Part shown: positions 1 through 60,308 of the stretch, one piece after another
Position numbering within the stretch: the stretch's first letter is position 1
Layout: every line of letters starts with the position of its first letter
Origin: Chloropicon primus
Taxonomy: Eukaryota
Assembly: GCA_023205875.1 (NCBI GenBank)
Contig: CP060758.1
Location: 62,001-126,000 of the forward strand
Direction: 5' to 3'
Length of the DNA stretch: 64,000 nt
Notes under the pieces: generated by a model
Database searches by the model: none
The model's input: the letters and a program-made list of their open reading frames with translations, nothing else
What the model was told of the DNA's origin: nothing
Made by a program: the position numbers and the translations under genes

Positions 1-847
1 GCAGGACGAACTCGGCCTCGACGGCGTCGATCTGCTTCCACTTGCTCCTCGAGTTCCCCGACAGCATCTCGGAGGAGAACACCAGCTTCTCGGCCGAGTG
101 GTCGCTGACGTACACCGCGGGGTACAGGTGCGGCGCCGTGTGGTGGAGCTTGAGGCTCGCCAGCCTGAGCCGCCGCCCCGCCCCCCCCACCTCCCCCGGG
201 GACTTGAGCAGGAGCTCGTAGTACCTGAGGTACCTCTGCTGGGACGCCAGGGTCAGGCCCTTGCCGTCGTGCGTCCTCCTGAGGTTGTAGTACGCCACGG
301 CCTCCTCCGCGGTGTCCGCGTAGCTCAAGTAGATCAGCAGGCAGCAGATCATCAGCCCCGTCCGGCTCTTCCCCGCCTTGCAGTGCACCACGACCACGTG
401 GCTCATGCTCTGCCTCAGCCACGACTTGGCGGACTCCACGAACGCCTGGATGAGCCGAAGGGGCGGGCAGTTGTGGTCGTCGAAGGGGAAGCTCGCCACC
501 TTCCCGTCGAAGAGCGCCGCGTCGTACGTCCGCTCAGAGCAAAGGTTGTAGATCTTGTACTTCCCCCCGGGGTGCTTCTCGTCCAAGAAAGACGTGACGT
601 GACCCATGTGGTTCCGGTACAAGCCCTCCACGTACCCGAGCACCCCGCTGCTCCGGTCCCCCGCCGGGAACCCCATCGCGATCACGTTCTCCGTGATGTA
701 AGACAAGTCCAAGTCGTACTCGCTGTCCTTGTACCGCCGCTTCTTCTGAGACACCAAAGACCGCGCGAAACGCGTCAGGGCGTTCCCCTTCGAGCGCCCG
801 GAACCACCTCGAGGGCGCGCCATCCGACTCCTCTCGCCATCCGCCAT
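1..847 (-). CDS. PTEN: PTEN-like lipid/protein phosphatase (runs off the window's left edge)
   Basis: Manual minus-strand translation from ATG 847 gives ...LVSQKKRRYKDSEYDLDLSYITENVIAMGFPA... and the catalytic loop VVVHCKAGKSRTG. Not in the ORF track because the stop lies outside the window. Confidence 0.9.
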   Translation of the reverse strand, partial: MADGERSRMARPRGGSGRSKGNALTRFARSLVSQKKRRYKDSEYDLDLSYITENVIAMGFPAGDRSSGVLGYVEGLYRNHMGHVTSFLDEKHPGGKYKIYNLCSERTYDAALFDGKVASFPFDDHNCPPLRLIQAFVESAKSWLRQSMSHVVVVHCKAGKSRTGLMICCLLIYLSYADTAEEAVAYYNLRRTHDGKGLTLASQQRYLRYYELLLKSPGEVGGAGRRLRLASLKLHHTAPHLYPAVYVSDHSAEKLVFSSEMLSGNSRSKWKQIDAVEAEFVL

Positions 848-1022: not shown

Positions 1023-1028
1023 TATAAA
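1023..1028 (+). promoter_or_regulatory. TATA box upstream of the permuted tRNA
   Basis: TATAAA about 25 nt before the leader (1051) that pairs with the tRNA trailer. Confidence 0.55.
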
Positions 1029-1066
1029 GACGAAAATGTGATATGATTCATGTGTACCTAATGGAC

Positions 1067-1246
1067 ATCTAAAGGTCGTGTGTTCGATCCACACTCATCG
1101 CAGTAAAGTCAGCATTTACTCCGCGCGAAACCTACTCACCGCGTGGCACTTGAGATGAACCAAACCCTAATCCAGACTTCCCTCTTACTCTGCCTCGTCG
1201 TACCGTTCGGCGATGATAGCTCAGTTGGGAGAGCGTTAGACTGAAG
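1067..1246 (+). tRNA. trnF-GAA: Circularly permuted tRNA-Phe(GAA): 3' half 1067-1102, 107-nt spacer, 5' half 1210-1246, junction at position 37/38
   Basis: 5' half GCGATGA-TA-GCTC-AGTTGGGA-GAGC-G-TTAGA-CT-GAA-G (37 nt) plus 3' half A-TCTAA-AGGTC-GTGTG-TTCGATC-CACAC-TCATCGC-A (36 nt) gives a cloverleaf with all four stems fully paired. Confidence 0.93.
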
Positions 1247-1703
1247 TTACGGTGCACACCCCAGGAGGAGGCGGCGAAACTACAGTCGCCTCTCCTCTTG
1301 CTCCGCGAGATAAGGGTTCGGTGAGAGACGTTAAATATACGAGCACAATAAGATCACAATAAGATCGTAACGGCGGAGGACGGCGAGGAGGACGAGAAGA
1401 CCGCGACCAGAGAGAGAGCGATGAGTTACCTCCTGGAATACTACAGCCGCGGGTTGCCGACGAAGAAGAGGAGACTGACGAATACTGGGACGTCATGTGA
1501 AGAAGGGGCTGGTGGCGCCACCCCGGCCGCGGTTCTCCAGGGGGATGGCGCCCAAGGATGGCGGGTGGCGCCCAAGGATTGTGGTGCCAATGTCTCTGTC
1601 TTCACCCACTTGCAGGGCAGCGGGCAGCCGTGCGGCAAGCCTGGACACCAACGCTTGCACAGTGGCCATGGCGACCTCCGCGGGACCTCATAGGGAGCGG
1701 GAG

Positions 1704-2585
1704 ATGGCCGCCATCGAGGAGAACGCGGATCCGACGACGCTTCTCAATGCGGATGGACTTCTTGCCTCTCTTCGCTTCGCAGACGAATTAGCTGGCGCGC
1801 CGCCCACCCTTGCACGCGAGGGTACACGGGCGGAGCGAACTCGCGAGCCTGAGGAGCTGACCCTGGTCCGCGTGGTCCGAGGCCGTGGCGGAGTCCACCT
1901 GGAGCGCGTTGCGGGCTTGAAAGAACTGACCCACTGCATCGTCTTCCTCCGCGAGTCCCTTGCGCGGGAGGGGCTTGGGAACAAGCTCGCTGGTCAGGCG
2001 GCCACGATCTCAAGCGCGTTGCTCGGCAAAGATCTTCCTAAACAGGTGAAAGCATTTCGTTTCGTGGAGCTTGGGACCGCCAGCCGCTCGCGATGCCTCA
2101 AGGACCGCAAAGTTCTTACGAAAGCTCTTGCCCTTGCGAAGGAGAAGGGCGAGCCTTGCGCGCTTCTTGTAGCTGCCTTGTCGCGATTGTCGAGACGGTC
2201 ACAAGCTGAAGAGGACCTCGACTACCTTGCTGAGCGCGCAGGGCAGGCCTCTATACTGGCGTGTATCCCGACGTCCCATGCAGCAGCTTTGATTGGGGAG
2301 GAAAAGAAAGAGGAGCTCAAAAAGTACATGAGCAAGGCTGCAAGCACCTCGGACGGGCACGCCGTGTACTCGGCGTCGCACTGCATGCTCAAGTCCGGCG
2401 CCACCCGTTGTTCTGTAGCATCGGGCCAACACACTTCTGAGGAACTTTGTCTCCTCGTCGAACACGTCGAGCACGTCCTGAGGCACAAGCTGGAGAATCT
2501 GGAGAAGCCGGGGGAGCAGAAGCACGGGAAACCCCTTCTCCTCGTATCTTCTTGGAAAGCGCTTTGTGGAGCAACGGGCGAGTGA
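1704..2585 (+). CDS. Serine recombinase/resolvase-like domain protein (ORF1 of putative mobile island)
   Basis: IVFLRES..EG....LAGQ (YxRxS..Q motif), FVELGTAS...DRKVL..AL and LLVAALSRLSR (V..LDRLSR motif) occur in resolvase order and spacing. Start at ATG 1704 is assumed. Confidence 0.65.
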   Translation: MAAIEENADPTTLLNADGLLASLRFADELAGAPPTLAREGTRAERTREPEELTLVRVVRGRGGVHLERVAGLKELTHCIVFLRESLAREGLGNKLAGQAATISSALLGKDLPKQVKAFRFVELGTASRSRCLKDRKVLTKALALAKEKGEPCALLVAALSRLSRRSQAEEDLDYLAERAGQASILACIPTSHAAALIGEEKKEELKKYMSKAASTSDGHAVYSASHCMLKSGATRCSVASGQHTSEELCLLVEHVEHVLRHKLENLEKPGEQKHGKPLLLVSSWKALCGATGE

Positions 2586-3858
2586 TCTCGTCCGCGCATG
2601 GAAGAACCAACCCACAGTTCGTGTGCTCGTCGCTGCTTGTTCCATCACGGAAGCGAACTACGACATCATTCTTCGCGAGGAGCACATGGAGTTCCTGGAG
2701 ACCTGCAGGCAATACTGCCACGTTCACTCCGTGAGGGACGAGTTGTTTGAAAACCGTGATGGACACGGCTTGGATGAAGACGCATTGAGCAGAGTCTTTG
2801 AGTACTTTGCGGATGCACTAAAGGGAGAACATGTCGATGTCGTGTTTGAGAATGAATGTTTCCCAGAAACCGCGATCTCTGTGACTCAAAAAGATTTCTT
2901 CAAATGCTCCTGCGCTGATAAATGCTCTCGCAAGTCGTCCAGGACAACAGGCACCGCGAACACCGCTCCAGCACATACTCGATGCCTTTGTGCTTGTGAC
3001 ATGTGCAAGAGGAGTCGTCCTTGCATTCTGGTGGACAGCGACGCCGAGGACGGCGGGGAGAGGGAGAGAGAGCTTCGGAAATTTGATGCCGCTGCATGTC
3101 CCTGTGAACGTTGCAGCAGCAGCCCCTTGAGCACTGGTACGACAAGGAAGACACAGGCCAAGACCAACACGAAAGGGAAGAGGAAGACCAAAGCAAGGGA
3201 GCCGATGAAGGAGTTTCCTCGACTTCCTACTACAGACGGTACTCAAACCCTGCGCTGCATCTGCTGTGATGCTTTTCGTCGCCCTGAGTGCCCCTTGGTC
3301 AAAACAGGAGCTCTGACACCGGTTCCGGGGGAGGAACGTGATCGAGGTGGGCACAATCCCACTTGCCTCCTCTCGAACTGGTGCTGGTACTGCCACCGCT
3401 TCATCTTCAAAAGTGAGTTTAACCACTGGTGCTCGTTCGACTGCTTCTCGAAAGCCACGAGGGTCGTGGACAAGGGGAAGCTTTGGGACAGGGGCATGGA
3501 AATTGGCATCGAACTGAAGAACACGATTGGTTTTTGGTTTTGTGATCCGTGTACAAAGAAATCGGAGTCCGAGAAAACCTTGATCCCAATCAAGAGTTCA
3601 TATGGCTTGAAGTGCTGGAGATGCAAATATGGACATGGCAAAATCGGCAAGGGGTGCGAGGAGAACGCAGGAGGAGGCGGCGTGAACATGCAGCGCGCAA
3701 ACATGCAGCGCGCAAAAATTGGTGAGAACAGAAAGGCCAAAGAGGTAGTGATCCGGCATCCAATGCTCGTCAAAATGATACTCATGATGCTTGAGAACAA
3801 TAGCGAGGTGAATACGGAGCAAGCGAAACCAGGGGAGGAGTCGGAGAAGGAGATCTAA
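2566..3858 (+). CDS. Cys-rich protein, probably the frameshifted continuation of the recombinase ORF
   Basis: 430-aa ORF with many CxC/CxxC clusters (CSCADKC, CLCACDMC, CPCERC, CICCD, CWYCH, CSFDC, CDPC, CWRC). It overlaps the ORF1 end in the +1 frame and begins with GTG rather than ATG. Confidence 0.55.
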   Translation: MEQRASDLVRAWKNQPTVRVLVAACSITEANYDIILREEHMEFLETCRQYCHVHSVRDELFENRDGHGLDEDALSRVFEYFADALKGEHVDVVFENECFPETAISVTQKDFFKCSCADKCSRKSSRTTGTANTAPAHTRCLCACDMCKRSRPCILVDSDAEDGGERERELRKFDAAACPCERCSSSPLSTGTTRKTQAKTNTKGKRKTKAREPMKEFPRLPTTDGTQTLRCICCDAFRRPECPLVKTGALTPVPGEERDRGGHNPTCLLSNWCWYCHRFIFKSEFNHWCSFDCFSKATRVVDKGKLWDRGMEIGIELKNTIGFWFCDPCTKKSESEKTLIPIKSSYGLKCWRCKYGHGKIGKGCEENAGGGGVNMQRANMQRAKIGENRKAKEVVIRHPMLVKMILMMLENNSEVNTEQAKPGEESEKEI

Positions 3859-4363
3859 AACTCAGTGGGCTCGAAGCCAGGGCCATTGGATATCTTTGCG
3901 GGAGGAATGGTTGGCGGAGCACGAACTTTTCGAGAAGGAAGATTATATCCCAAGCCGAAAAGCATTGAAGGCCAAGTACATGGCCGAGGTCAAGAAGAAG
4001 AAGCCGACGCCTGACACTACGTCACAGCTCGCGACCGGCAGCACCACCTCTGCCCTCCCTAACGCTGGTGTTGCTCGAGGGTCAGCAGGGCGGGAGCTGA
4101 CGTTCACCACCCAGCTACAGGGAGTGGGGCAGGGGCGTGGATCGGGGACACTGCGTGAGGTTCCTCTGCCTAAAACGGCTATCAAGGCCCTTGCAGCTAC
4201 GGCTTGGCCTCTACGAATCGCGGAGGTCAAGCTCATCAACAATTGCCTCGATGAGGAGTCGATGATTCTCGTCGCCGCGATGCTGTCTTCGGATGCAGGG
4301 GGAGGTGGGTCGCAGAAGGAGGCACCCGAGGGCCTTGGAACTCAGAATCGCCAGCGCGCACCC

Positions 4364-4436
4364 TCTCCCTCTCTCCTCCTCTCCTCTCCTCCTCTCCTCT
4401 CCTCTCTCCTCTCCTCTCCTCTCCTCTCCTCTCTTC
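4364..4436. repeat. (CTCCT)n pyrimidine microsatellite
   Basis: Visible CT/CTCCT run. Confidence 0.85.
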
Positions 4437-4859
4437 TTGTCCGTTGGTTCTTCCGTCTTAAAATCGATCCAAGACAGAACAGGAGACAAGAGACAAACAA
4501 ACACTAACACCAACACCAACACGAGCAACACCAACAACACAAGAGTCTCGTTCCTTACGATCGAGTTGTTCTTCGAGTCGCTCTCGGCGTTGCGTTGCCA
4601 AAGGTCCCGCCTTTGCACACCACACCATAGTGTTCTATTCGTCTATGTGTGTTTGTGATCCTCAACAACAACAACGAGCCAAAGGAGGATGAGGCTCAGC
4701 AGCGAGAACAAGAAGAACAAGACGACGACGACGAAGAAGAAGACGAGCAGCAGCAGCAGCACGAGCTGGTGAGGAAGGACGCGGGAACTGCATTTCTCAT
4801 TTCTCAGAAGAATCTGCTGCCTCGACCACCTCAAGCCACAGGTGGTCATCATCATCATC

Positions 4860-6683
4860 ATGGCCCTGACGTGCGCCACGACCGTCCTGCGGCCCCCATC
4901 CACCTGCTACGACGGCGACGACTGCGACGAGGAGCTCTCCCTCAGCAGCACGTTCTCCTCCTCCTCCCAGGAGTCCGTGTCCCAGTCCTTCAGCGAGGAG
5001 CCCCCGCTGCCGTCCAGGGACAGCAGCTGCTCCTCGCTGAGGTCCCTTTCCCTGTCAGTCTCGTCGTCGGAACCCAGCAGCAGCAACAACAGCAACAACA
5101 GCAGCACGCAGTACCTCGTGGAGCGCTCCAAGTTCGTGGGGACGCCCCCCACGGTGTTCTTCGGGACGGACGCCAACCCCCCCAGCGAGGAGGCCGCGGC
5201 ACTGCCTCAGGTCCTCCCCAAGGTGTTCCTCAAGTACACCGGGGTGAACTGCAACGTGGTCAAGCAAGCCTTCGCGAGGGCGGGGTTCAGGAACTGCCCC
5301 AAGGACAAGGACCACTTCAACGCGGTGTGGGCCTCGCCCATGAAGGTGAACCACTTCCAAAGCTTCAAGGCGTACCAGAAGGTGAACCACTTTCCGGGGA
5401 CGTGGGAGCTGGGGAGGAAGGACAGGCTGTACCGGAACATCTCCAAGATGAGGCGGCGGCACGGGGACAAGTACGACATCCTTCCCTTTGCGTTCGAGCT
5501 CCCCGGGGACTACGACGAGTTCCTCAAGGACTGGGAGAGGAGGCCCAACCAGTGGTACATCATCAAGCCCAGGTCGTCCTCCAGGGGCAGGGGGATCAAG
5601 CTGCTGAAGAAGCTGAGCGACGTGGAGAAGAAGAAGTCCGGCCCGAGGGAGTGCATCGTCCAGAGGTACATCAAGGACCCCCTGCTGATCGACGGGTACA
5701 AGTTCGACATGAGGGTGTACGTCCTGGTGACGTGCTTCGACCCCCTGAGGGTGTACGTCGCGAGGGAGGGCCTCGCGAGGTTCGCCACGGAGCCCTACTC
5801 GAGCGACTCGAGCAAGATGAAGTCCAGGAGGTGCCACCTGACGAACGTGAGCATCAACAGCAAGAGCAAGAAGTTCGTGGTGAACCAGGACGCGGCCAAG
5901 GACGGGGAGGGGAGCAAGTGGACGCTCTCCGCCCTGCGGAGGCACCTCGAGTCCAACGAGGAGTTCGGGGTGACCTCGTGGGAGGAGCAGATCTGGTCCC
6001 AGGTCAAGGACCTCGTCATCAAGGCGGTGATCTCCGTGGACGCCAAGGTCAACACCCTGGTCAAGATGCACGTGCCGGGGAACAACTGCTTCGAGCTGTA
6101 CGGCGCGGACGTAATGCTGGACTCCAAGCTCAAGGCCTGGCTCATCGAGTTCAACACCGGGCCCGCCCTGAACACCCCGACGCCCCTGGACAAGGCCGTC
6201 AAGTCCCGGGTGGTGACCGACATGTTCCACATCGTGGGCTTCGCCCCGGTGGACAAGAAGAAGCACGAGAGGGGCGTCCAGGCGTCCAGGCAGAACAGGC
6301 TGACCGGCATCGGGCTGCAGAAAATGAGCGCGACTCACAGGGACACGAACCAGGCGCAGACCATGGTCTTCGACGGGGTGAAGGAGAGCCACCTGCCCGA
6401 CGTGGTGAGGGAGACCGAGGCCGAGCACAGGAGGAGCGTCGACAGGGTCTTCGAGCGGGCCTTCCCCTGCTCGGCGAGACCCTCCGCGTACCACAGCCTC
6501 TTCGAGGTCCAGAGGTACAACAACATCGTGGTCAAGAGGTGGCTCATCTCCGAGAGGAGGAAGAGGATCCGGCTCGAGAGGGAGAGGGCGGAGCAGGAGG
6601 AGGAGGCGAAGAGGACAATGATGGAGTCGCCCAAGGTGGACGACGCCTTGCAAGCCACCGCCGCCGCCGTCGCGGCCACCTGA
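4860..6683 (+). CDS. TTLL4: Tubulin-tyrosine ligase-like polyglutamylase (TTLL4/5 type)
   Basis: Motifs QKVNHFPG, IIKP.SSSRGRGI, VQRYI..PLLIDGYKFDMRVYVLVT, GLARFAT, HLTN.SIN, CFELYGADVMLD, WLIEFN..P. Confidence 0.9.
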   Translation: MALTCATTVLRPPSTCYDGDDCDEELSLSSTFSSSSQESVSQSFSEEPPLPSRDSSCSSLRSLSLSVSSSEPSSSNNSNNSSTQYLVERSKFVGTPPTVFFGTDANPPSEEAAALPQVLPKVFLKYTGVNCNVVKQAFARAGFRNCPKDKDHFNAVWASPMKVNHFQSFKAYQKVNHFPGTWELGRKDRLYRNISKMRRRHGDKYDILPFAFELPGDYDEFLKDWERRPNQWYIIKPRSSSRGRGIKLLKKLSDVEKKKSGPRECIVQRYIKDPLLIDGYKFDMRVYVLVTCFDPLRVYVAREGLARFATEPYSSDSSKMKSRRCHLTNVSINSKSKKFVVNQDAAKDGEGSKWTLSALRRHLESNEEFGVTSWEEQIWSQVKDLVIKAVISVDAKVNTLVKMHVPGNNCFELYGADVMLDSKLKAWLIEFNTGPALNTPTPLDKAVKSRVVTDMFHIVGFAPVDKKKHERGVQASRQNRLTGIGLQKMSATHRDTNQAQTMVFDGVKESHLPDVVRETEAEHRRSVDRVFERAFPCSARPSAYHSLFEVQRYNNIVVKRWLISERRKRIRLERERAEQEEEAKRTMMESPKVDDALQATAAAVAAT

Positions 6684-25694: not shown

Positions 25695-26389
25695 CTTTTT
25701 CACCAAGCCAAAACTGTGTCCCCTCTCTGATTCACTCTCCTCCTCCTCCTCCTCCTCAAAGCCAGCCTCGTTGCTGGTCCTCCTTCAAAGTGCTAGGTGG
25801 TCGTGCCTCAAAAACGACAACGACGTATACTCATATCCTCTCTCTTGTACACCGCCTCTGCCTTGCACACCGCCTCAGCCTTGCACACCGCCTCTGCCTT
25901 CGAACCAAGGGCGCTCTCGCCCCGGAGCACGATTCGCCGAGGCCCTCGCGTCTCTCCCTCTCCCTCTCGCCCCCCCCCTGCCCTTCCTTCCTCGCCGTCA
26001 CGAGGTCGCCAGCACAGCACCTACCAGGACGTCGCTCGTCGCCTGAGGCGTCAAAACCCTCAACAGAGGCACCTATCGAAAGCTCACGAGAAGAGCACCC
26101 CCGTCAATACGTCTCCTTCCCCTCTCGCCCGCCTCCTCGTCGCCTCGTCGCCTCCCTCGTTCTCGCCCGCGTCAAGGAAAGTGCCGCTGTTCTGGGGCGT
26201 GTTCTCGTCTCTCCGTCAGCACCCCGAAACCTTGAGAATCTTGTCCGCGGGACGAGTGTGCTAATTCCATCTTGAGCCGTTTGAATCCTGCTTTTTTGGC
26301 GCGGGTTGTATTGTGAATCAGTTTACAACTTCACAACGAGGGGAACGAGGGGGAGGAGGGAGGGGCCGAGGAGGAGGATGTGGACTCGT

Positions 26390-27265
26390 GGCGGGGAGTG
26401 GGAACCAGGAGGATGGATGACGAGGACGGACAACCGCACACACCAGCACGCCAGATAATCCAACACGAGGAGGAGAAGCAGCATGATCGTGATCGTCGGT
26501 CGTGATCGTGAGGAGGAGGTTGCGATGATGTGACCACGAGGCGGGGAGTGGGAACCAGGAGGATGGATGACGAGGACGGACAACCGCACACACCAGCACG
26601 CCAGATAATCCAACACGAGGAGGAGAAGCAGCATGATCGTGATCGTCGGTCGTGATCGTGAGGAGGAGGTTGCGATGATGTGACCACGAGGCGGGGAGTG
26701 GGAACCAGGAGGATGGATGACGAGGACGGACAACCGCACACACCAGCACGCCAGATAATCCAACACGAGGAGGAGAAGCAGCATGATCGTGATCGTCGGT
26801 CGTGATCACGAGGAGGAGGTTGCGATGATGTGACCACGAGGCGGGGAGTGGGAACCAGGAGGATGGATGACGAGGACGGACAACCGCACACACCAGCACG
26901 CCAGATAATCCAACACGAGGAGGAGAAGCAGCATGATCGTGATCGTCGGTCGTGATCGTGAGGAGGAGGTTGCGATGATGTGACCACGAGGCGGGGAGTG
27001 GGAACCAGGAGGATGGATGACGAGGACGGACAACCGCACACACCAGCACGCCAGATAATCCAACACGAGGAGGAGAAGCAGCATGATCGTGATCGTCGGT
27101 CGTGATCACGAGGAGGAGGTTGCGATGATGTGACCACGAGGCGGGGAGTGGGAACCAGGAGGATGGATGACGAGGACGGACAACCGCACACACCAGCACG
27201 CCAGATAATCCAACACGAGGAGGAGAAGCAGCATGATCGTGATCGTCGATCTTGATCGTGAGGAG
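26390..27265. repeat. 150-bp tandem repeat, about 5.8 near-identical copies
   Basis: GGAACCAGGAGGATGG at 26401, 26551, 26701, 26851, 27001 and 27151. Confidence 0.97.
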
Positions 27266-27490
27266 GGGAGGAGGGTGGATTGTGGAAAGCGGTCGTGCCC
27301 CTCTATCAGGAGGAGGGCGCGGGATCCACACCCGAACCCAGCAGGGACGGCACACTGGGACGTTTGCTATGATGAGAAAGAGTGATGATGGACTGAGTGG
27401 TGATGGATTTACTTTGGATTTACTCTGGACATTGTGATTCCCATGCGTCATCTCCCTTCGTTGCACAACAGCAAAAAACTTGGTTTCATC

Positions 27491-40672: not shown

Positions 40673-42274
40673 TCACACGTCGGCAGGAGATTCCCACTCG
40701 TCGATTTCCGACTCAGCAGGGTCTTCTACCGGGTTGCGGCGCGTTGACATCTGCCGCTTTCGCCTAGGCGCGCGAGAAGTCTGCTCGTCCCTCTTCCTCT
40801 TCGCATCCTCCTCTCGCTTCTGATTCAGCTTCCTTTGTTTATCTCGTTCCGCTCGTCCTCGCTCCCGTTCCAACCTTTTCTTCTGAGATTCGAGGGCCGT
40901 GGTTACCTTCTTGAGCCTCTTGGTCAGTCCATCTGTATTGGGCCAATCATCATCTGCCTTGGACTCTTCCACTGGTTCTTTTCCCTCCGCAGACCCATTC
41001 TTCGCATCTTGCTCCTCCTTCTCGCGCTTCTTTCGAGTGTGGACGCAAGACACGCATTGGCAGCCCTCTTTGTGCCTAAACTGCTCCCTCTTCTTCAAGT
41101 TGGCCTCCACGTTGGTCTCATCACGGGTAAAAGCCTCTGCGTACTCGGGGTCGTTCCTGATCTTATCGAACGCCCCGTAGCCGTGCTTGTAGACGCCAAA
41201 GAGCAAGGCCTTGTCCGCTGCCGTGGACCACCATTCAATTGGAGGCGAGCTGTCCGCCATGGTGGCCATCAGGTCTTCGAACTGTTCGATTTTGGACTCA
41301 TCCATACCCATCAGAGCAGCTTCATTGATCAAATCCATAAGCCTCAGCTTTCTCAGCCACGACAACCCAAGCTTGTCTATTTTCGGCCAAGGGTTCGAGA
41401 GCTCCGGGATCGCTATGGCGCCTTCCTCCTTGTACTCACTAATCTTGCGGATAGCGAAGGCGTCCTCCTTAGGCACGGGGCCGGGGCGAGCTGCTCCTGC
41501 GCCCTTCTTCCCCTCCCCCGTCGCCCCCTCCCCGTCTTCCCCCTCCTTCTCTTGCTTCTCCTTCTCCTTTTTCAACTTGGCCTCCCTCAGCTGATCCTGA
41601 GACTCCTTGAGAGCCACGAGCAAGGTGTAGGTCAAGTTGCGTATGTCGTGCACGCCGTGAACCAGCTGCGTGTGCTCCTCCAGGAGCTGCTTCTGGATCC
41701 TCCCCCACTCTCCCATCCCGTACGTCAGGAGGATCTTCCTCAGCTTGTCCTGCTCGTACTTCCTCCACTCCTTGCCAGTGCTCTCCGGAATGTCCTTCTG
41801 CAAAGACCAGCCCACCTTCTTGTTGCAGGGCCTGTTCTTCGTCCCCAGCTCCACCCCGTGCCCACTGGTGCCGTTAGGATACAAGTTCTTCGCCTTGGCC
41901 TCCTTCTTCGCCATCCTTTGCCTCTGCCTGCTCCTCCTCTTCAAATCATCACGCCACTTCCGCTGGTCCACTTGAATCCTCTCCAGCTTGCTCTTCGTTT
42001 GCCTCTCCAGCAGTTCCGCCCACAACTCGATCCCACGTTTCCGTCGCGAAGGGTCACTCCCCAACCCACGCGAAGAAGACAAAACCCTTTCGTAGACATC
42101 TTCCAGCTTCTCCGTCTCTATGGCGGACACGGACACGCCCTCCGTTCCGTCCACCTCCTCCCACAGCCCCTCCGTCATCCTCCCTCCCCTCAAGAAGCTT
42201 CGGCTTCGCTTCAACGACGACCGCCACACCCCAACGCCTCGACTCCCTTCCGCTTCCTCCAAATCCCCATCCAT
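40673..42274 (-). CDS. CHD-remodeler C-terminal (SANT/SLIDE-like) region without ATPase
   Basis: W..YEQDKLRKILLTYGMGEWGRI, WWSTAADKALLFGVYKHGYGAFDKIRNDP, WPNTDGLTKRLKK resemble CHD6-9-type C-terminal motifs. Start uncertain. Confidence 0.7.
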   Translation of the reverse strand: MDGDLEEAEGSRGVGVWRSSLKRSRSFLRGGRMTEGLWEEVDGTEGVSVSAIETEKLEDVYERVLSSSRGLGSDPSRRKRGIELWAELLERQTKSKLERIQVDQRKWRDDLKRRSRQRQRMAKKEAKAKNLYPNGTSGHGVELGTKNRPCNKKVGWSLQKDIPESTGKEWRKYEQDKLRKILLTYGMGEWGRIQKQLLEEHTQLVHGVHDIRNLTYTLLVALKESQDQLREAKLKKEKEKQEKEGEDGEGATGEGKKGAGAARPGPVPKEDAFAIRKISEYKEEGAIAIPELSNPWPKIDKLGLSWLRKLRLMDLINEAALMGMDESKIEQFEDLMATMADSSPPIEWWSTAADKALLFGVYKHGYGAFDKIRNDPEYAEAFTRDETNVEANLKKREQFRHKEGCQCVSCVHTRKKREKEEQDAKNGSAEGKEPVEESKADDDWPNTDGLTKRLKKVTTALESQKKRLERERGRAERDKQRKLNQKREEDAKRKRDEQTSRAPRRKRQMSTRRNPVEDPAESEIDEWESPADV

Positions 42275-42294
42275 CAGTGGAGGAGGCCAGGCAT

Positions 42295-42325
<31 letters not shown>

Positions 42326-42677
42326 TGTGTCAGAGTGTGAGAGGGTGAGGGTGGTGGAGGACAATACAATGTCTGCATCCTTCACCACCATTCATCATGA
42401 CTACGCTTCCGCTTCCTCCAAATCCCCATCCCCATCGAGGATCAGAGGAGGATGAGGCATCATCCATCATCAGTGGAGGAGGCCAGGCATGAGAGAGAGA
42501 AAGAGAGAGAGAGACTGTGTGTCAGAGTGTGAGAGGATGAGGGTGGTGGAGGACAATACAATGTCTGCATCCTTCACCACCATTCATCATGACTACGCTT
42601 CCGCTTCCTCCAAATCCCCATCCCCATCGAGGATCAGAGGAGGATGAGGCATCATCCATCAGTGGAGGAGGCCAGGC

Positions 42678-42713
<36 letters not shown>

Positions 42714-42860
42714 GTGTCAGAGTGTGAGAGGGTGAGGGTGGTGGAGGACAATACAATGTCTGCATCCTTCACCACCATTCATCATGACTACGCTTCCGCT
42801 TCCTCCAAATCCTCATCCCCATCGAGGATCAGATCAGCATCATCCATCATCAGTGGATGA
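42247..42860. repeat. ~190-bp tandem repeat (about 3.2 copies) with embedded (GA)n of variable length
   Basis: ACAATACAATGTCTGCATCC at about 42361, 42553 and 42749. Confidence 0.92.
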
Positions 42861-43467
42861 GAGTGCGTGCGTGTGTCATGTGGGGCGATGGGAAGAGGGT
42901 TTGCCTCGTCTTTACCTCGTCTTTGCCTCGCTGGCAGGGATTTCATACAATACAAATACATTACCAGTACAAGTGGTGTGCCCATGGACTGAAAACTAGA
43001 AAACAAGTGCTCCACTTGCTTTGACGATCAGGTGGCCTGCGATTCGGACTCTGCTTCCGTCGGGAGAGATCTGGTCCTCGGTGATACGGTCACGGTCAGC
43101 GGATAATCCCCAGCCTCACTCTTACCCCTCCCTGCCGCAGCCTAGGGCACCAAAGCCACCAAAGCCACCAGTGGCCTCCAAAGTCTGTGGAGCCAGCAGC
43201 GAATTTGATCTCAAAGGCCAAAACCTAAAAGCGGGGATCGTCCACCACGGAGTGTAGCAAGGTGAGTTGCGGATGGCATGTGGAGGGCGAGGGGGGGGAG
43301 AGGAGACGCGATCGTCGATGGATGGAATCGTCGTCTCGCGCTCGTTCTAACGAGCCCTCGCTCGAAGGAGTTGACGACGTGGGGAAGATTTTAGAAACTG
43401 AACAACTTTCTTCTCTCTGCTTTGCATTGATCGGCGTCAGAGTGAGAGAGAGAGCGAGCGAGGAGAG

Positions 43468-45565: not shown

Positions 45566-48500
45566 TTAGCTTCCACTGACCCAGTTCCACAAATTAGCGC
45601 CCGCTGTCTTCAGTGCCTCGTCAATCTGCACATCCTCTCCGTCTTCATCGGAGTCTTCCACTGCTTCGGCCGCCATCTTATCGAACAGCGAGCCGATATC
45701 CTTGGGACCTTCTTTTTGAGACTTCTCCTCGATGGACGGTCTTCTTGCTGGTTTCTCACTGATCTCCCACCCCTCCTCGGCGCCGCTGTTCCACGAATCA
45801 TCCAGAATCACGGCAGCTTCAGCAGCAGTATCTGGTGGACCGGAAATCGTTGGAGCACTCTGCACGCCGCCCAAGAGCTTCTTCTTCGCTTCTTCCAATT
45901 CCATTGACAATTTTGAATTCTCGTGCTTTGAAAGTGAGAGCTCCTTCTCTTTTGCTTCCAGCTTCTCCTGGATGTTCTTGCCTTTCACTACTGCTGCCTT
46001 CAGCTTGTGCATGGTGTCTTTTTGCTTCTGTTGCAACTTTGAATAGTCCTCGCCCGGCTCTGCTGACGCGGGTGGAGGACTTTGCTGGGAGAGCTCTTCG
46101 ATCTGTTGTTCTTTCTCCTTCAAAGTGGCGGCTGCCTTATCAAATTCTTCCTGGATTGCGCCAAGCCTGGTTTCCAGTTCTTCTGTGTGCAAGAGCTTCT
46201 CCTTCATGCCTTCCTCCAACTTCAAGAATTCATCTTGCATCTCTTGAGCTTTCAGATTATCTTCCTTTTCCTTGTGCAGGTTTGTTTCCAGTTGCGATAT
46301 GTATTCCTTCTGCAAGCCCATCTCCTGCTTCAGCTCCCTCAGTTCAGATGAAGTCTGCGAGTCATTCTTTGCTCCGTTCGCCTGCAAGTCGTTGATTTGC
46401 TCTTGCTTCACATTAATCTCTCGCATCAGCTGTTCCATCTCACTTTGAAGCATTCTTTCCGAGTTCAGCTTGTTCTGTTGTGCCTCTTCCACCTTGGTCT
46501 GAAGCTTACTTATGTCACCGTCCTTCGAAGCAACCGCACTTTGCAACAGCTCTATTTCGTGTGCTTTCTCCTCCAGCTCAGACCTCGCTCCCTCATTCTG
46601 GTCTGCTCTTTCCCTTTCAATATGGAGTCTGCTCTCGAGCTCCGCAATCAATTGCTGTTGCTCAACGGCCTCATCCTCTGCGATCAATTCCCGTTGCTCT
46701 TTCATCTCGAGCGCGACGAGCTTCTCCTTCAGCTCAGCCCCAGCAGCCTCGCTCTGGTTCGCCCGTTCCCTCTCCTCCTCGAGCTTGCCCTGCAGATCAG
46801 CTATCATTTGGCCTTGCTCAGAAGCATCATCCGCCTCAGCATTCGCTCGCTCGCTCAACTGTTGCTCCAGCTCCGCAACCTTGGCACGCAGACCCTCCGC
46901 GTCGGAAGAAGAAGCGCTCCTCATGTTCTCAACCTCGGCGGCCAAGCTCTCTACTTGCTGGGCGAGATCGACCTCTCTCTGCTCCAGCGATGACACCTTG
47001 GCCTCAGCCTCGTCTCTCTGGCTCAAGGACAACGCAGATGCGGCTTCCAGCTTCGTGTTCTCGTCCTCCATCTCGCTTATCTGCTCCTGCAGTGCAGCCA
47101 GCTCGCTGAGCTTCTCCTTCAGCTCAGCCCCAGCAGCCTCGCTCTGGTTCGCCCGTTCCCTCTCCCCCTCGAGCTTGCCCTGCAGATCAGCTATCATTTG
47201 GCCTTGCTCAGAAGCATCATCCGCCTCAGCATTCGCTCGCTCGCTCAACTGTTGCTCCAGCTCCGCAACCTTGGCACGCAGACCCTCCGCGTCGGAAGAA
47301 GAAGCGCTCCTCATGTTCTCAACCTCGGCGGCCAAGCTCTCTACTTGCTGGGCGAGATCGACCTCTCTCTGCTCCAGCGATGACACCTTGGCCTCAGCCT
47401 CGTCTCTCTGGCTCAAGGACAACGCAGATGCGGCTTCCAGCTTCGTGTTCTCGTCCTCCATCTCGCTTATCTGCTCCTGCAGTGCAGCCAGCTCGCTGAG
47501 CGTCTCCTTCAGCTCAGCCCCAGCAGCCTCGCTCTGGTTCGCCCGTTCCCTCTCCTCCTCGAGCTTGCCCTGCAGATCAGCTATCATTTGGCCTTGCTCA
47601 GAAGCATCATCCGCCTCAGCATTCGCTCGCTCGCTCAACTGTTGCTCCAGCTCCGCAACCTTGGCACGCAGACCCTCCGCGTCGGAAGAAGAAGCGCTCC
47701 TCATGTTCTCAACCTCGGCGGCCAAGCTCTCTACTTGCTGGGCGAGATCGACCTCTCTCTGCTCCAGCGATGACACCTTGGCCTCAGCCTCGTCTCTCTG
47801 GCTCAAGGACAACGCAGATGCGGCTTCCAGCTTCGTGTTCTCGTCCTCCATCTCGCTTATCTGCTCCTGCAGTGCAGCCAGCTCGCTGAGCGTCTCCTTC
47901 AGCTCAGCCCCAGCAGCCTCGCTCTGGTTCGCCCGTTCCCTCTCCTCCTCGAGCTTGCCCTGCAGATCAGCTATCATTTGGCTCTGTTCGGCGGCATTGG
48001 ACTCTGCAGCATCGTCATCAACGGCACCTCCTTTCTCTTCATACCCCTTCAACCTTTTCTGGGCTTCTTGGAACTGCTGTTCAATGGCCTTTCCCTTCTT
48101 CACGGCAGCCCTCAGCTTCGTCATTGTTCCAGATTCTTTGCTTTTCAAAGCTTTGATTTCCTCCTCCAACTCTTCCAGCACCTTTGCGTCTGCCCCTGAC
48201 CCCTTTCCTTCCTCCTTCTCTTCCTCCAAAGATTTGATGAGGTTGGCCTTCTCCTCGATCTCACAGGCTTGGCTCGCGATCTCACTGTGCAGCGCCTCCT
48301 TCTCCTCTTCCGTCTTCTTCCCAATTTGCTCCATCCGCTTCTTGAGCACCTGGACCTGCTTCTCTGCCTTCCTCTTTTGAAGCTCGGCCGTTCTCACCTT
48401 CTTGCTCGCGTTCCCTGCCTCTTCCTCGCTCGCGTTCCTTGCAAGGATAACAGCCTGCAGCTGCTCGGACTGCAAAGTCTCCCTCCCCTTCATCTCCTCG

Positions 48501-56763: not shown

Positions 56764-57116
56764 TGGTCGGATCCTCGAGGCTGTAATGTAAAGCGGTACT
56801 TGGTGCAACAGTAAGAATATGAACACTTCCGTTAAGCGTGGCGGAGACAAACGAATGGTGATGATGATGCTACTGAACAAGTGCTTGAGAGAATATATTA
56901 TACAAGCTTTTATTTGCTTCAATGGATCATACAAGATGAAGCAAAACATGCAACATGCAACATGCAGAGGGGAACAAGAATCAGGGGGGGTGGGGAGAGA
57001 ACATGCAGAGGCCAAGGTGTACGTTGGTGTCCACCTTGACCCAAAGAAAAATCAAAGCGAGAGCTCAGAAAGCACAAAGAATGCAAGCAGGCAGGCGATC
57101 AAAGTCTTTCTTTGCC

Positions 57117-58325
57117 TCACTTTCCAGGTCCAGGGAAGGCAATATCCACTGCGGTGAGTGGCAAGGCGCCACCTCCCAATCCTCGAAGAGCATCCTGCAC
57201 GCCGAACAGGGCGGGCTCCTTGCTGCTTCTTCCGGCTCCAATGCCAGCGCTGGCGCCAACAAAGGTAGGGGTGGAAAGAGCCACGTCGTTACCGGCGGCA
57301 ACGCGGAAAGGCCTCGACTCGCTGATCGTAGCTCCATCAAAGTAAGAGTTGGCGGTTCCGACAGGCTCGTAGTGGAGGTTGGTCATGTGGCCCTCCGTGG
57401 CAGACTCCGCAAAAGTCTGCTTGGGGCTGCTTTGCCTCACGCCAGTCCTCGCCTGAGTTCCAGAGTTGCCGCTGGCCTTGCCGAACAATCCCGAGGACGC
57501 CCAGGTGGCGGACTTGGTCAGAGACCAGTCCGTGCCATTCCCCCCTCTCTGCCTGAACCCAATGGCACCGTTGGCGGAGGTGATCTCGGCATGTGGTCCC
57601 TTGGCCTCGATGTGAGATCCACCAGTAGCACTGGCAAACCTCCTGCTTCTTGTCTCCTCCTCCTCGCCCACATCAAGGAGTCTCCTTCCGTGTCCAGGGA
57701 AGGCGACATCCACTGCGGCGAGTGGCAAGACTCCACCTCCAAAGGCTCGAAGAGCATCCTGCGTGCCGAACAGGGCGGGCTCCGTCAGCGCCACTCCGGC
57801 TCCAATGCCAGCACTGGCGCCAGCGAAGAGAGGGGTCGCAAGGGCAACGTCGTTACCGGCGGCAACATCGAGAGGCCTTTCCAAGCTCGATCCAGATCCA
57901 TCAAAGTAAGAGTTGGCCGTGCTGTGAGGCTCGTAGTGGAAGTTGCTCATGTGAGCGTCGGTGGCAGACTCTCCGTGGGTGCTGATGTCGTCACCCTTGC
58001 CGGTGTCCGCGTACGTTCCTGAGTTACCATTGGCCTCGCCGTACAATCCGGAGGACACATAGGTGGCGGACTTAGTCAGAGACCAATCGGTCTTGTCCTT
58101 CTCTCTGTACGCGATGGCTGCGTTTCCGGAAGAGACGTGGGCATTGGGCCCCTTGGAAGAGACGTGGGATCCACCAGTAGCCCTGGCGAACTGTCTCGAG
58201 GGTGGGATGCCGGTTCCCTCGTTGTAGAACGAGTTGCTGCAAGCCGCGGAGCTGACCGCGAGTGCGGCCAATGCAAGGTACATGGCCTTCTTGCTCATAT
58301 TGTTGTTGTTGTTGTTCGAGTTCAT
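57117..58325 (-). CDS. Secreted two-domain polyprotein, copy 1
   Basis: MNSN..MSKKAMYLALAALAVSSAAC signal, two homologous ~165-aa G/A/S/T-rich domains, linker GHGRRLLDVGEEEETRSRR, terminal PGK. Confidence 0.8.
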   Translation of the reverse strand: MNSNNNNNNMSKKAMYLALAALAVSSAACSNSFYNEGTGIPPSRQFARATGGSHVSSKGPNAHVSSGNAAIAYREKDKTDWSLTKSATYVSSGLYGEANGNSGTYADTGKGDDISTHGESATDAHMSNFHYEPHSTANSYFDGSGSSLERPLDVAAGNDVALATPLFAGASAGIGAGVALTEPALFGTQDALRAFGGGVLPLAAVDVAFPGHGRRLLDVGEEEETRSRRFASATGGSHIEAKGPHAEITSANGAIGFRQRGGNGTDWSLTKSATWASSGLFGKASGNSGTQARTGVRQSSPKQTFAESATEGHMTNLHYEPVGTANSYFDGATISESRPFRVAAGNDVALSTPTFVGASAGIGAGRSSKEPALFGVQDALRGLGGGALPLTAVDIAFPGPGK

Positions 58326-58417
58326 GGTTGACTGGTGAGTGATCGTGGGTGTTGCTGGAAGCAAGCAGTTGGCGACAGCCTGATCAAAAATGTGATCCCG
58401 TTTTGGGCCGAAGGCCC

Positions 58418-58425
58418 TATTTATA
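58418..58425 (-). promoter_or_regulatory. TATA box (TATAAATA) of array genes; also at 60401, 61820 and 63802
   Basis: About 93 bp upstream of the ATG in every unit. Confidence 0.7.
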
Positions 58426-59099
58426 GGTCGGCCGGGCCGGAGCGGAGGGAGGCGAAAACCGGTTTGCCCCGTGGCAATCGAGTGGACGGCGCTGTCCTCT
58501 CCGTTTTGTCCACCCCTTTTGCCGTTGGGATCGGCGTCATTGCCACACTTTGGTCGCCAGGCGGCCATTTTTGCCAGAGCTCGAGGCAAAATCCTCGTGT
58601 TTTTGCCGTTATTTATCCATGGACGCGTACACTAAAAATGAGATGTGAGAGATCGGGCGCTTGGAGGAGGACGGGACCGTGCGTGGTTTTGCTCCCAGGG
58701 CTTGACCAAGACGGCAACCCCTCACGATGGCGATCCCCTTGTCCCTCACGGGTAGGATCTCCCTCCCCTTTGGTGCGATGCTTGCCCCTTTCAAGCTAGA
58801 ATTTCCGGACACCAAGCAAGCAGGAGGAAAGAAAGTGGACGAGGGAGAGAGCAGTGGAGGCAAAAGGTAATTGAAATATATTGTACAAGCTTTTATTTGC
58901 TTCAATGGATCATACAAGATGAAGCAAAACATGCAACATGCAACATGCAGAGGGGAGCAAGAATCAGGGGGGGTGCGGAGAGAACATGCAGAGGCCAAGG
59001 TGTACGTTGGTGTCCACCTTGACCCAAAGAAAAATCAAAGCGAGAGCTCAGAAAGCACAAAGAATGCAAGCAGGCAGGCGATCAAAGTCTTTCTTTGCC

Positions 59100-60308
59100 T
59101 CACTTTCCAGGTCCAGGGAAGGCAATATCCACTGCGGTGAGTGGCAAGGCGCCACCTCCCAATCCTCGAAGAGCATCCTGCACGCCGAACAGGGCGGGCT
59201 CCTTGCTGCTTCTTCCGGCTCCAATGCCAGCGCTGGCGCCAACAAAGGTAGGGGTGGAAAGAGCCACGTCGTTACCGGCGGCAACGCGGAAAGGCCTCGA
59301 CTCGCTGATCGTAGCTCCATCAAAGTAAGAGTTGGCGGTTCCGACAGGCTCGTAGTGGAGGTTGGTCATGTGGCCCTCCGTGGCAGACTCCGCAAAAGTC
59401 TGCTTGGGGCTGCTTTGCCTCACGCCAGTCCTCGCCTGAGTTCCAGAGTTGCCGCTGGCCTTGCCGAACAATCCCGAGGACGCCCAGGTGGCGGACTTGG
59501 TCAGAGACCAGTCCGTGCCATTCCCCCCTCTCTGCCTGAACCCAATGGCACCGTTGGCGGAGGTGATCTCGGCATGTGGTCCCTTGGCCTCGATGTGAGA
59601 TCCACCAGTAGCACTGGCAAACCTCCTGCTTCTTGTCTCCTCCTCCTCGCCCACATCAAGGAGTCTCCTTCCGTGTCCAGGGAAGGCGACATCCACTGCG
59701 GCGAGTGGCAAGACTCCACCTCCAAAGGCTCGAAGAGCATCCTGCGTGCCGAACAGGGCGGGCTCCGTCAGCGCCACTCCGGCTCCAATGCCAGCACTGG
59801 CGCCAGCGAAGAGAGGGGTCGCAAGGGCAACGTCGTTACCGGCGGCAACATCGAGAGGCCTTTCCAAGCTCGATCCAGATCCATCAAAGTAAGAGTTGGC
59901 CGTGCTGTGAGGCTCGTAGTGGAAGTTGCTCATGTGAGCGTCGGTGGCAGACTCTCCGTGGGTGCTGATGTCGTCACCCTTGCCGGTGTCCGCGTACGTT
60001 CCTGAGTTACCATTGGCCTCGCCGTACAATCCGGAGGACACATAGGTGGCGGACTTAGCCAGAGACCAATCGGTCTTGTCCTTCTCTCTGTACGCGATGG
60101 CTGCGTTTCCGGAAGAGACGTGGGCATTGGGCCCCTTGGAAGAGACGTGGGATCCACCAGTAGCCCTGGCGAACTGTCTCGAGGGTGGGATGCCGGTTCC
60201 CTCGTTGTAGAACGAGTTGCTGCAAGCCGCGGAGCTGACCGCGAGTGCGGCCAATGCAAGGTACATGGCCTTCTTGCTCATATTGTTGTTGTTGTTGTTC
60301 GAGTTCAT
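59100..60308 (-). CDS. Secreted two-domain polyprotein, copy 2
   Basis: Same as copy 1 except WSLAKS for WSLTKS. Confidence 0.8.
   Translation of the reverse strand: MNSNNNNNNMSKKAMYLALAALAVSSAACSNSFYNEGTGIPPSRQFARATGGSHVSSKGPNAHVSSGNAAIAYREKDKTDWSLAKSATYVSSGLYGEANGNSGTYADTGKGDDISTHGESATDAHMSNFHYEPHSTANSYFDGSGSSLERPLDVAAGNDVALATPLFAGASAGIGAGVALTEPALFGTQDALRAFGGGVLPLAAVDVAFPGHGRRLLDVGEEEETRSRRFASATGGSHIEAKGPHAEITSANGAIGFRQRGGNGTDWSLTKSATWASSGLFGKASGNSGTQARTGVRQSSPKQTFAESATEGHMTNLHYEPVGTANSYFDGATISESRPFRVAAGNDVALSTPTFVGASAGIGAGRSSKEPALFGVQDALRGLGGGALPLTAVDIAFPGPGK

What the first reader, a model, noticed from the sequence alone, without database searches (positions are those of the whole stretch)
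1704..2585. Serine-recombinase-like gene in an algal nuclear genome, directly beside a tRNA gene
Seen: HCIVFLRES (putative catalytic Ser codon 1956-1958), LAGQ, FVELGTAS, DRKVL..AL and LLVAALSRLSR are in the order and spacing of resolvase/invertase catalytic domains. The ORF is intronless and less GC3-biased than the flanking PTEN and TTLL genes. Known: serine recombinases are typical of prokaryotic and viral mobile elements and are rare in eukaryotes (IS607-like and giant-virus-derived cases); tRNA genes are common integration targets. Inference: candidate for an undescribed eukaryotic mobile element family combining a recombinase with a Cys-rich domain, possibly tRNA-targeted. The DRL-to-SRL change may indicate divergence or inactivity.
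Basis: partly seen in the sequence, partly recalled or inferred. Interest (0 to 1): 0.8.

Follow-up and report, generated by a model that had tools for sequence, protein, structure and literature searches.

The report
Double-recombinase algal element following tRNA genes
This is a broken copy of a repeated DNA element in a tiny green alga whose intact copies encode one protein with two serine-recombinase-like domains; it likely moves itself and likely lands just after tRNA genes, which would make it a second kind of serine-recombinase transposon in eukaryotes.

Summary
The motifs are real, but the ORF is only a fragment. It belongs to a dispersed Chloropicon primus family with 9 and 11 annotated loci in two strains. 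Intact copies encode one ~950-aa protein with two tandem Resolvase-type domains and a Cys-rich tail (Pfam E 2.5e-10, two stretches). The canonical domain 2 (IARTS…DRLTR) is removed here by a 440-bp deletion that other copies share. The D-to-S change in domain 1 is family-wide, not decay. Relatives of 1106-1178 aa (~27% identity) from unnamed metagenomic contigs keep both active-site motifs. The neighbouring tRNA is a circularly permuted tRNA-Phe that ARAGORN and Rfam miss. Two other copies also start 5-11 nt after tRNA-like 3' ends (one clear, one weaker). Best reading: a serine-recombinase DNA transposon, unlike IS607 (no TnpB or N-terminal HTH detected), that inserts downstream of tRNA genes. 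Ends, empty sites, circles and activity were not shown.

The parts
2..847 (-). Host PTEN-like gene (left flank, runs off the window)
   Evidence: Pfam PTEN2_C2 E 6.5e-9; run X1 depth ~98-141
1023..1028 (+). TATAAA box, likely upstream promoter of the permuted tRNA
   Evidence: Only TATA[AT]A match in 900-1100; position fits PMC3978253; function inferred
1051..1066 (+). Leader that pairs with the trailer (BHB-like junction helix)
   Evidence: Leader/trailer co-fold -17.5 kcal/mol; approximate limits; no shuffle control
1067..1102 (+). 3' half of circularly permuted tRNA-Phe(GAA)
   Evidence: Joined halves called tRNA-Phe(gaa), 73 nt, by ARAGORN; holds the only perfect T-arm in 128,000 positions
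1103..1209 (+). 107-nt intervening sequence of the permuted tRNA
   Evidence: Sequence; longest in the 2014 review was 74 nt
1210..1246 (+). [quoted passage not shown]
1247..1261 (+). Trailer; no run of 4 or more T follows on this strand until 3273
1262..1300 (.). Left-end zone of the element: imperfect inverted repeat (9+5 bp) where multicopy depth begins; two other copies join at 1298 and 1299
   Evidence: Depth 98 to 2435 between bins 1224-1245 and 1268-1289, loose ends at 1298/1299; hairpin z -2.54, 4 of 200 shuffles, on a window chosen after seeing it
1301..1420 (+). Variable 5' non-coding region, with duplications and skips among copies (possible subterminal binding repeats)
   Evidence: Joints 1333>1391 and 1395>1352, several loose ends; role inferred
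1421..1636 (+). N-terminal piece of the gene (P0016 1-72); a 17-nt deletion after 1635 shifts the frame
   Evidence: tblastn 93%; 17 letters put in behind 1635 in X4, X5, X7
1545..2585 (+).
1932..2375 (+). Serine-recombinase-like domain 1 (R 1950-1952, S 1956-1958, SRLSR 2181-2195, TSDG helix)
   Evidence: Pfam E 3.8e-4; AF2 pLDDT 62.5; 12 of the top 50 VIA rows are serine recombinases, Z 4.9-6.3; motifs conserved in relatives
2529..2546 (+). First strand of domain 2 and breakpoint of a 440-bp deletion (3-nt microhomology at 2544-2546) that removes P0016 383-528, including IARTS and TRADRLTR
   Evidence: X5 record 19 and X1 loose ends at 2544/2546; tblastn gap; alignment
2545..3858 (+). C-terminal piece (P0016 529-947): conserved post-catalytic block and Cys motifs (CxCxxC near 2983, CWxCH…CxxxC near 3382-3444), likely Zn-binding and DNA- or factor-binding
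   Evidence: tblastn 85%; motifs shared with P0055/56/48; no Pfam hit
3859..4005 (.). 3' non-coding part shared by many copies; right end not resolved
   Evidence: Depth 1013 in bin 3745-3978; a new unitig starts at 3976; 4005 inferred from the 31-letter word length
4006..4348 (.). Low-copy sequence (about twice flank depth), element or older neighbour; holds an ORF with no family match
4349..4445 (.). (CTCCT)n microsatellite at the right boundary
4860..6683 (+). Host TTLL4-like gene (right flank)
   Evidence: Pfam TTL E 4.3e-84; cluster named TTLL4 [Chloropicon primus]

Best explanation
The window holds an internally deleted copy of a multicopy Chloropicon primus element whose intact gene encodes two tandem serine-recombinase-like domains and a Cys-rich tail, and which likely transposes by its own serine recombinase into the spacer just downstream of tRNA genes. 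Shown: the multicopy dispersed family, the two-domain protein, conserved R-x-S and (S/D)R-x-x-R motifs in two lineages, the shared 440-bp deletion, and tRNA ends beside 3 of 3 visible left junctions. Inferred: (i) the two domains supply two of the four active sites of a serine-recombinase synapse, so a protein dimer would do what a tetramer normally does; (ii) the element excises, probably as a circle, and re-inserts without needing sequence identity to the target; (iii) the C-terminal module binds the element end or Pol III-associated DNA or protein, placing insertions 5-52 nt after the tRNA, in the same orientation; (iv) deleted copies such as this one are moved in trans by intact ones. At this permuted tRNA the insertion follows the end of the transcription unit, not the B-box about 170-200 nt upstream. 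That hints that the Pol III termination zone is the cue (one case only).
For: Copies: 7 longer Chloropicon proteins at 90-97% identity and an 11-member cluster on several chromosomes. X1 depth is 900-2700 over 1171-3978 against 76-141 in the flanks (summed depth, not a copy number). Orthogroups OG0000040/45, listed as specific to C. primus, give 9 and 11 loci; 8 pair up by gene number and 1+3 do not. Catalysis: Pfam Resolvase 41 bits, E 2.5e-10, 2 stretches, in 6 of 16 proteins scanned, and P0007 with domain 2 alone passes the cut-off. PHROG DNA invertase E 1.3e-4. ESM Atlas gives 28 of 30 hits Resolvase, top score 0.92. A serine integrase is the top Foldseek row for both models, E 3.8e-3 and 9.9e-3. 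Selection: LRxS, ALSRxxR, I[AG]RTSP and TRADR[LV]TR are kept at ~27% identity in P0041/48/55/56. Mobilisation in trans: four proteins end in the same deletion-derived tail (P0001, P0010, P0011, P0013), and P0011 is also on a different, 1,154,373-nt contig. Targeting: the flank at 1298 has a full T-arm, acceptor strand and T-run; the flank at 1299 has a partial T-loop, acceptor-length strand and 11 nt. A perfect T-arm occurs 1 time in 128,000 window positions.
Against: Neither end is fixed, and no target duplication, att core, empty site or circle junction was seen. Local alignment of the two ends was not clearly above shuffles (scores 23 and 26, 95th percentiles 22-23, maximum 32). Only 2 other left junctions were displayed, and 7 loose-end rows were hidden. 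The second flank's motif occurs 140 times in 128,000 positions, so it is weak alone. Domain 1 is below the Pfam cut-off. VIA Z is under 8, with two HflX GTPases ranked above the recombinases. The 950-aa model is poor (pLDDT 35.8). None of the distant relatives scanned matches Pfam Resolvase. Domain 1 and domain 2 profiles do not align to each other (probability 0.1). Strain-specific loci rest on gene lists, not DNA. A table of heterozygous indels showed no element-end motif (cells cut at 400 letters). 8 of the loci are shared by both strains, so most copies are not new.
Confidence: 0.68

Rival explanations
1. The gene is a passenger. Its RNA or DNA is copied by another element (for example a tRNA-targeting retrotransposon or a DDE transposase acting in trans), and the recombinase has another role.
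For: Left ends differ between copies (1262-1268 against 1298/1299). The right end is ragged and ends near a microsatellite. Insertion 8-300 bp after tRNA genes is known for TRE3 and Skipper-2 retroelements (PMC5006619). Guessed-RNA runs hold the element at depth.
Against: No reverse transcriptase or DDE match in the frames scanned in 1391-4345 or in the intact proteins. No terminal inverted repeat between the ends. Both active-site motifs are kept in a distant lineage, where broken and near-identical copies also occur.
Confidence: 0.15
2. The element is a remnant of an integrated virus or virophage, the recombinase being its integrase.
For: Low GC3. The AP2-like tail of P0041 matches the tail of phage HNH endonucleases (E 1.9e-8). 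tRNA genes are common viral integration sites (recalled).
Against: The unit is only ~2.7-3.1 kb here with one gene. There was no relative in IMG/VR in 4 scans, in phage or plasmid records, or in GTDB genomes by peptide pattern. The pattern scans are insensitive.
Confidence: 0.07
3. The element is a mobile serine-recombinase element without active tRNA targeting; copies beside tRNAs survive because these spacers are safe in a compact genome.
For: Only 3 junctions seen. Fragments are also fused into gene models of ferrochelatase and an FAD oxidoreductase (P0008, P0009), whose tRNA context is unknown.
Against: With 46 annotated tRNA genes (PMC12301720), a 60-nt same-strand window after them is roughly 3 in 10,000 of non-coding space (my estimate). 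Distances of 5-11 nt are tighter than survival alone would give.
Confidence: 0.07
4. The family is a domesticated host gene family expanded by segmental duplication.
For: Several copies have intact 900-950-aa frames, and the locus beside TTLL4 is annotated in both strains.
Against: Sharp multicopy boundary with unrelated flanks. Many split or truncated copies. The orthogroups are listed as specific to C. primus, with no orthologue row in 13 other algae for the 4 genes found.
Confidence: 0.03

Closest known systems
IS607 / IS607EU (TnpA serine transposase + TnpB/Fanzor2)
   Same: Serine-recombinase chemistry in a eukaryotic mobile element; no terminal inverted repeats seen; possible subterminal repeats and an imperfect inverted repeat near an end. 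PMC13565253 calls IS607EU the only known eukaryotic DNA transposon with a serine recombinase (passage).
   Different: Two catalytic domains in a 950-1180-aa protein; no N-terminal HTH and no TnpB detected; putative DNA-binding modules are C-terminal; lies after tRNA genes, not at GG dinucleotides.
Large serine recombinases/transposases (TnpX of Tn4451, Bxb1-type integrases)
   Same: Catalytic domain followed by a long C-terminal part with Cys motifs; TnpX, Bxb1 and TP901-1 catalytic domains are among the VIA rows.
   Different: No Pfam Recombinase or zinc-ribbon match; duplicated catalytic domain; flanks of three copies share no att-like sequence.
TRE3 and Skipper-2 retrotransposons of dictyostelids
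   Same: Position just downstream of tRNA genes in a gene-dense genome (PMC5006619 passages).
   Different: They are retroelements with reverse transcriptase; none is detected here.
Dada DNA transposons
   Same: Eukaryotic DNA transposons tied to tRNA genes, with internally deleted derivatives (PMC3706591 passages).
   Different: Dada uses a DDE transposase, inserts inside the RNA gene and makes 6-7-bp duplications; this element leaves the tRNA whole.
Crypton (tyrosine-recombinase DNA transposons)
   Same: Eukaryotic DNA transposon moved by a site-specific-recombinase-type enzyme, with a circle expected.
   Different: Tyrosine, not serine, chemistry.
Type II permuted tRNA genes of prasinophytes and C. 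merolae
   Same: 3' half first, junction 37/38, paired leader and trailer, upstream TATA (PMC3978253 passages).
   Different: 107-nt intervening sequence; no downstream T-run, perhaps displaced by the element.

Membership tests
Serine recombinase superfamily | Resolvase catalytic domain above the Pfam cut-off | tested here: met
   Intact copies 40-43.5 bits against 23.3; domain 2 alone 26 bits. Domain 1 alone 18-21 bits, below the cut-off.
Serine recombinase superfamily | R-x-S nucleophile motif and D-R-x-x-R motif (gamma-delta R8, S10, D67, R68, R71; numbering recalled) | tested here: met
   Domain 2: R386, S388, D475, R476, R479 of P0016. Domain 1: R184, S186, R262, R265, with S or N in place of D in all 9 proteins that cover the motif.
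Serine recombinase superfamily | Resolvase fold for the window's domain 1 | tested here: inconclusive
   12 of 50 VIA rows are serine recombinases aligned from their first residues, best Z 6.3, rmsd 4.3, 108 aligned, tied with unrelated folds; Foldseek E 9.9e-3.
Serine recombinase superfamily | Phosphoserine-linked DNA cleavage and strand exchange | not testable with these tools
   Needs biochemistry.
IS607 / IS607EU | N-terminal winged-helix DNA-binding domain on a short TnpA | tested here: not met
   No HTH or IS607 model hit at E up to 1 in Pfam or NCBIfam; protein is 950 aa with two catalytic domains.
IS607 / IS607EU | Linked TnpB/Fanzor2 gene | tested here: not met
   No such match in the frames scanned across this copy or in the intact proteins; DNA of other copies not seen.
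IS607 / IS607EU | Ends and target at GG, no duplication | tested here: inconclusive
   Left junctions at 1298/1299 follow T-rich or A-ending flanks, not GG; right end unknown.
Large serine recombinases | Recombinase (PF07508) and zinc-ribbon domains after one catalytic domain | tested here: not met
   No such Pfam hit at E up to 1; remote homology not excluded.
Transposable element (general) | Dispersed copies with unrelated flanks | tested here: met
Transposable element (general) | Defined termini and empty sites | tested here: inconclusive
   Left end 1262-1299, right end at or beyond ~4005; three metagenome runs did not cover the junction; no genome held.
Dada | DDE transposase, insertion inside the RNA gene | tested here: not met
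   No DDE match; tRNA halves intact and element outside them.
Permuted tRNA type II | Inverted halves, junction 37/38, paired termini, upstream TATA | tested here: met
   processing to mature tRNA not tested

The most novel reading that the evidence does not exclude
A new superfamily of eukaryotic DNA transposons, present in at least two marine lineages, whose transposase fuses two serine-recombinase domains into one chain and is aimed at the termination zone of Pol III genes, including permuted tRNA genes.
Probability: 0.5. Interest if true: 0.92.

Novelty: categorically new. Interest (0 to 1): 0.82.

Why it matters
A 2026 review names IS607EU as the only eukaryotic transposon with a serine recombinase (PMC13565253); this would be a second, differently built group. 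A chain with two catalytic domains poses a direct test of the subunit-rotation model: the linker must join either the two subunits that rotate together or the two that cut one site. It could also allow asymmetric sites, which engineered serine recombinases lack. Targeting after tRNA genes is documented for retroelements; here it would be reached by a recombinase-based DNA element, which suggests a compact safe-harbour integration tool. The permuted tRNA-Phe also suggests that Chloropicon tRNA sets, annotated with tRNAscan-SE, are incomplete.

Tried and rejected
No whole genome is held for the window, so copies could not be aligned as DNA. No DNA of relatives was obtained: IMG/VR 4 scans, JGI metagenomes 2 scans (598 pattern matches each, none confirmed), GTDB 1 scan, phages and plasmids by tblastn. 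These scans rest on short patterns and missed proteins known to come from JGI, so they do not show absence. PDB sequence searches gave no recombinase. The full-length AF2 model is unreliable. Domain 1 versus domain 2 profile alignment failed. The complex predictor was not available, so pairing of the two domains is untested. A second ESM Atlas search, for P0041, did not complete. Metagenome runs X8, X9 and X11 covered only tRNA-like words and short bits, so no empty site. Programmed frameshifting between ORF1 and ORF2 was considered and rejected: other copies carry 440 more bases there. The intron in gene model P0001 is not seen in contigs crossing 1802-2546. Repeat search found no terminal repeat or target duplication. 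The heterozygous-indel table of PMC6731263 held none of 12 short end motifs (80, 120; I read part 1 of 5, and long cells are cut). Earlier scan findings: three look-ups, nothing returned. Literature searches for a prior description: 27, 28, 32, 84, 85, 101, 126, 130; listings showed none, and five phrases for tandem serine-recombinase domains gave 0 papers. Subscription journals and Repbase were not searchable, and bioRxiv supplements were closed.

Full report
Observation. The ORF and its motifs are present as described. Pfam Resolvase matches 1935-2270 weakly (E 3.8e-4, 21 bits, cut-off 23.3). GC3 is 0.66 against 0.95 and 0.97 in the PTEN and TTLL neighbours, though within the low end of other ORFs in the window. 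Named homologues at 90-97% identity place the window in Chloropicon primus.

The tRNA. ARAGORN and Rfam find no tRNA in the window. The halves are in reverse order: 3' half at 1067-1102, 5' half at 1210-1246. Joined, they give a 73-nt tRNA-Phe(GAA), and leader and trailer pair. A TATAAA lies at 1023. This matches type II permuted tRNA genes of green algae (PMC3978253, passages seen). The expected T-run after the 5' half is missing; the first run of four T is at 3273. Permuted tRNAs are a known kind. The two Chloropicon genome papers do not report them in the passages I searched (PMC6731263: 'permut' 0; one search listed two other papers).

The gene is a broken piece of a larger one. Other copies encode single proteins of 892-950 aa. 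P0016 maps to the window in three pieces: 1-72 at 1421-1636, 49-382 at 1545-2546 and 529-947 at 2545-3783. Laid contigs show why. Seventeen letters are missing after 1635, and 440 are missing at a 3-nt microhomology at 2544-2546 (length from X5 record 19). The lost residues 383-528 hold IARTS and TRADRLTR, a fully canonical serine-recombinase site. Intact proteins score 40-43.5 bits with two Resolvase stretches in 6 of 16 proteins scanned, and P0007, which keeps only domain 2, passes the cut-off.

Multicopy and dispersed. In DNA run X1, summed depth is 900-2700 over 1171-3978 and 76-141 in the flanks. File S1 of PMC12301720 (part 1 of 24 read) lists the family as hypothetical proteins in two orthogroups specific to C. 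primus: 9 loci in one strain, 11 in the other. Eight pair up by gene number; A3770_02p16300 and HOP50_03g27050, 14g72430 and 16g76820 do not. I confirmed family membership by sequence for 17 of the 28 listed models, not for 14g72430. Four proteins share the deletion-derived tail, and one identical to the window's product is also on another contig. The deleted form has thus itself been copied.

Junctions. Multicopy depth starts at about 1262-1268, at the edge of an imperfect inverted repeat (1262-1300; z -2.54, chosen post hoc). Two other copies join at 1298 and 1299 with unique flanks of 255 letters or more. The first flank ends GTAGG-TTCGAAT-CCTGC, seven acceptor letters, a G and a T-run: a complete tRNA 3' end with terminator. 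The second shows TCGATCC, the right spacing for T-stem and acceptor, and 11 more letters. A perfect T-arm occurs once in 128,000 window positions; the partial motif occurs 140 times. So 3 of 3 visible left junctions follow tRNA ends, two strongly and one weakly, at 5-52 nt and on the same strand; 7 loose-end rows were hidden. The right end is unresolved: many copies share sequence to about 4005, about two to 4348, then comes a microsatellite. No terminal repeat or duplication was found.

A second lineage. phmmer of P0016 against 1.84 billion representatives gave 8 hits. A profile search gave 9, and cluster look-ups added full-length members of 1106-1178 aa. At 26-27% identity they keep LRxS, K[FY]ADQ, ELxSA and ALSRATR in domain 1, I[AG]RTSP and TRADR[LV]TR in domain 2, a block after domain 2, and CxCxxC and CWxCH…C motifs. 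P0041 ends instead in an AP2-like module (Pfam E 0.0018; PHROG E 1.9e-8). Near-identical and broken members share long contigs. Their host is unknown and I could not read their DNA. None matches Pfam Resolvase on its own. The D-to-S change is common to the family.

Structure. The AF2 model of window 1866-2402 (pLDDT 62.5, pTM 0.63) has the strand-helix order of a resolvase catalytic domain. Foldseek's top row is a serine integrase (E 9.9e-3). VIA lists 12 serine recombinases among 50 rows (best Z 6.3, rmsd 4.3, 108 aligned), tied with unrelated alpha/beta folds. This agrees with the profile result but does not prove it. The ESM Atlas gives 28 of 30 Resolvase hits for P0016 165-630.

Mechanism (inferred). 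Serine recombinases act as tetramers that cut four strands and swap them by rotation (recalled; PMC6188088 passages discuss rotation and the IS607 exception). Two conserved active sites per chain suggest that a dimer forms the synapse. I favour excision as a circle and insertion guided by tethering rather than by an att sequence, because the three targets differ in sequence and distance. At the permuted gene the element follows the end of the transcription unit rather than the B-box, which points to the termination zone. Confidence in a self-mobile serine-recombinase element with tRNA-downstream preference is 0.68. The passenger, viral-remnant, survival-only and host-family readings share the rest.

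Comparison. It works like a serine-recombinase transposon but fails IS607 membership (no N-terminal HTH or TnpB detected) and shows no large-recombinase domains. PMC13565253 (passages) states that IS607EU is the only known eukaryotic case. The Fanzor2 elements of C. primus in 10.1101/2023.08.09.552727 (passages) are a different family with terminal repeats and 5-nt duplications. Targeting resembles TRE3 and Skipper-2 (PMC5006619 passages) more than Dada (PMC3706591 passages). The main texts of both genome papers hold 'recombinase' and 'resolvase' 0 times, while UniRef labels some copies as resolvase-domain proteins. Eight searches found no description of the element; Repbase and subscription journals were not covered.

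Verdict. The feature is real and larger than reported: a probable new group of eukaryotic mobile elements with a double serine recombinase, seen here as a deleted copy behind a permuted tRNA. Interest 0.82.

Noticed in passing
window 1023-1261: Permuted tRNA-Phe(GAA) with a 107-nt intervening sequence, missed by ARAGORN and Rfam; other Chloropicon tRNAs may be permuted too.
   Followed up: yes
window 1213-1391: Contigs of two guessed-RNA runs (X4 from 1236, X5 from 1213) run from the tRNA 5' half into the element; possible Pol III read-through for lack of a terminator, or DNA in the run.
   Followed up: no
window 56892-64000: Tandem array with a period near 1983 bp and longer near-identical blocks (95-99.6%), holding a 483-aa ORF on the minus strand with no Pfam match.
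   Followed up: partly
window 26374-27266, 42267-42861, 46718-47982: Minisatellite arrays with periods of about 150, 197 and 390 bp.
   Followed up: no
P0008, P0009: Gene models of ferrochelatase and an FAD oxidoreductase begin with about 200 aa of this element; either annotation fusions or insertions at gene starts.
   Followed up: no
P0002: A metagenomic relative (69% identity over 44% of the ORF) has a long different N-terminus with a Myb-like W-x-x-x-W stretch (resemblance recalled, no Pfam match).
   Followed up: no
window 4499-4536: A short motif upstream of TTLL is shared by several unrelated contigs in runs X5 and X7; possible promoter element.
   Followed up: no
PMC12301720 file S1: Other C. 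primus-specific multicopy orthogroups of hypothetical proteins (OG0000003, OG0000020, OG0000026) may be further unannotated mobile elements.
   Followed up: no
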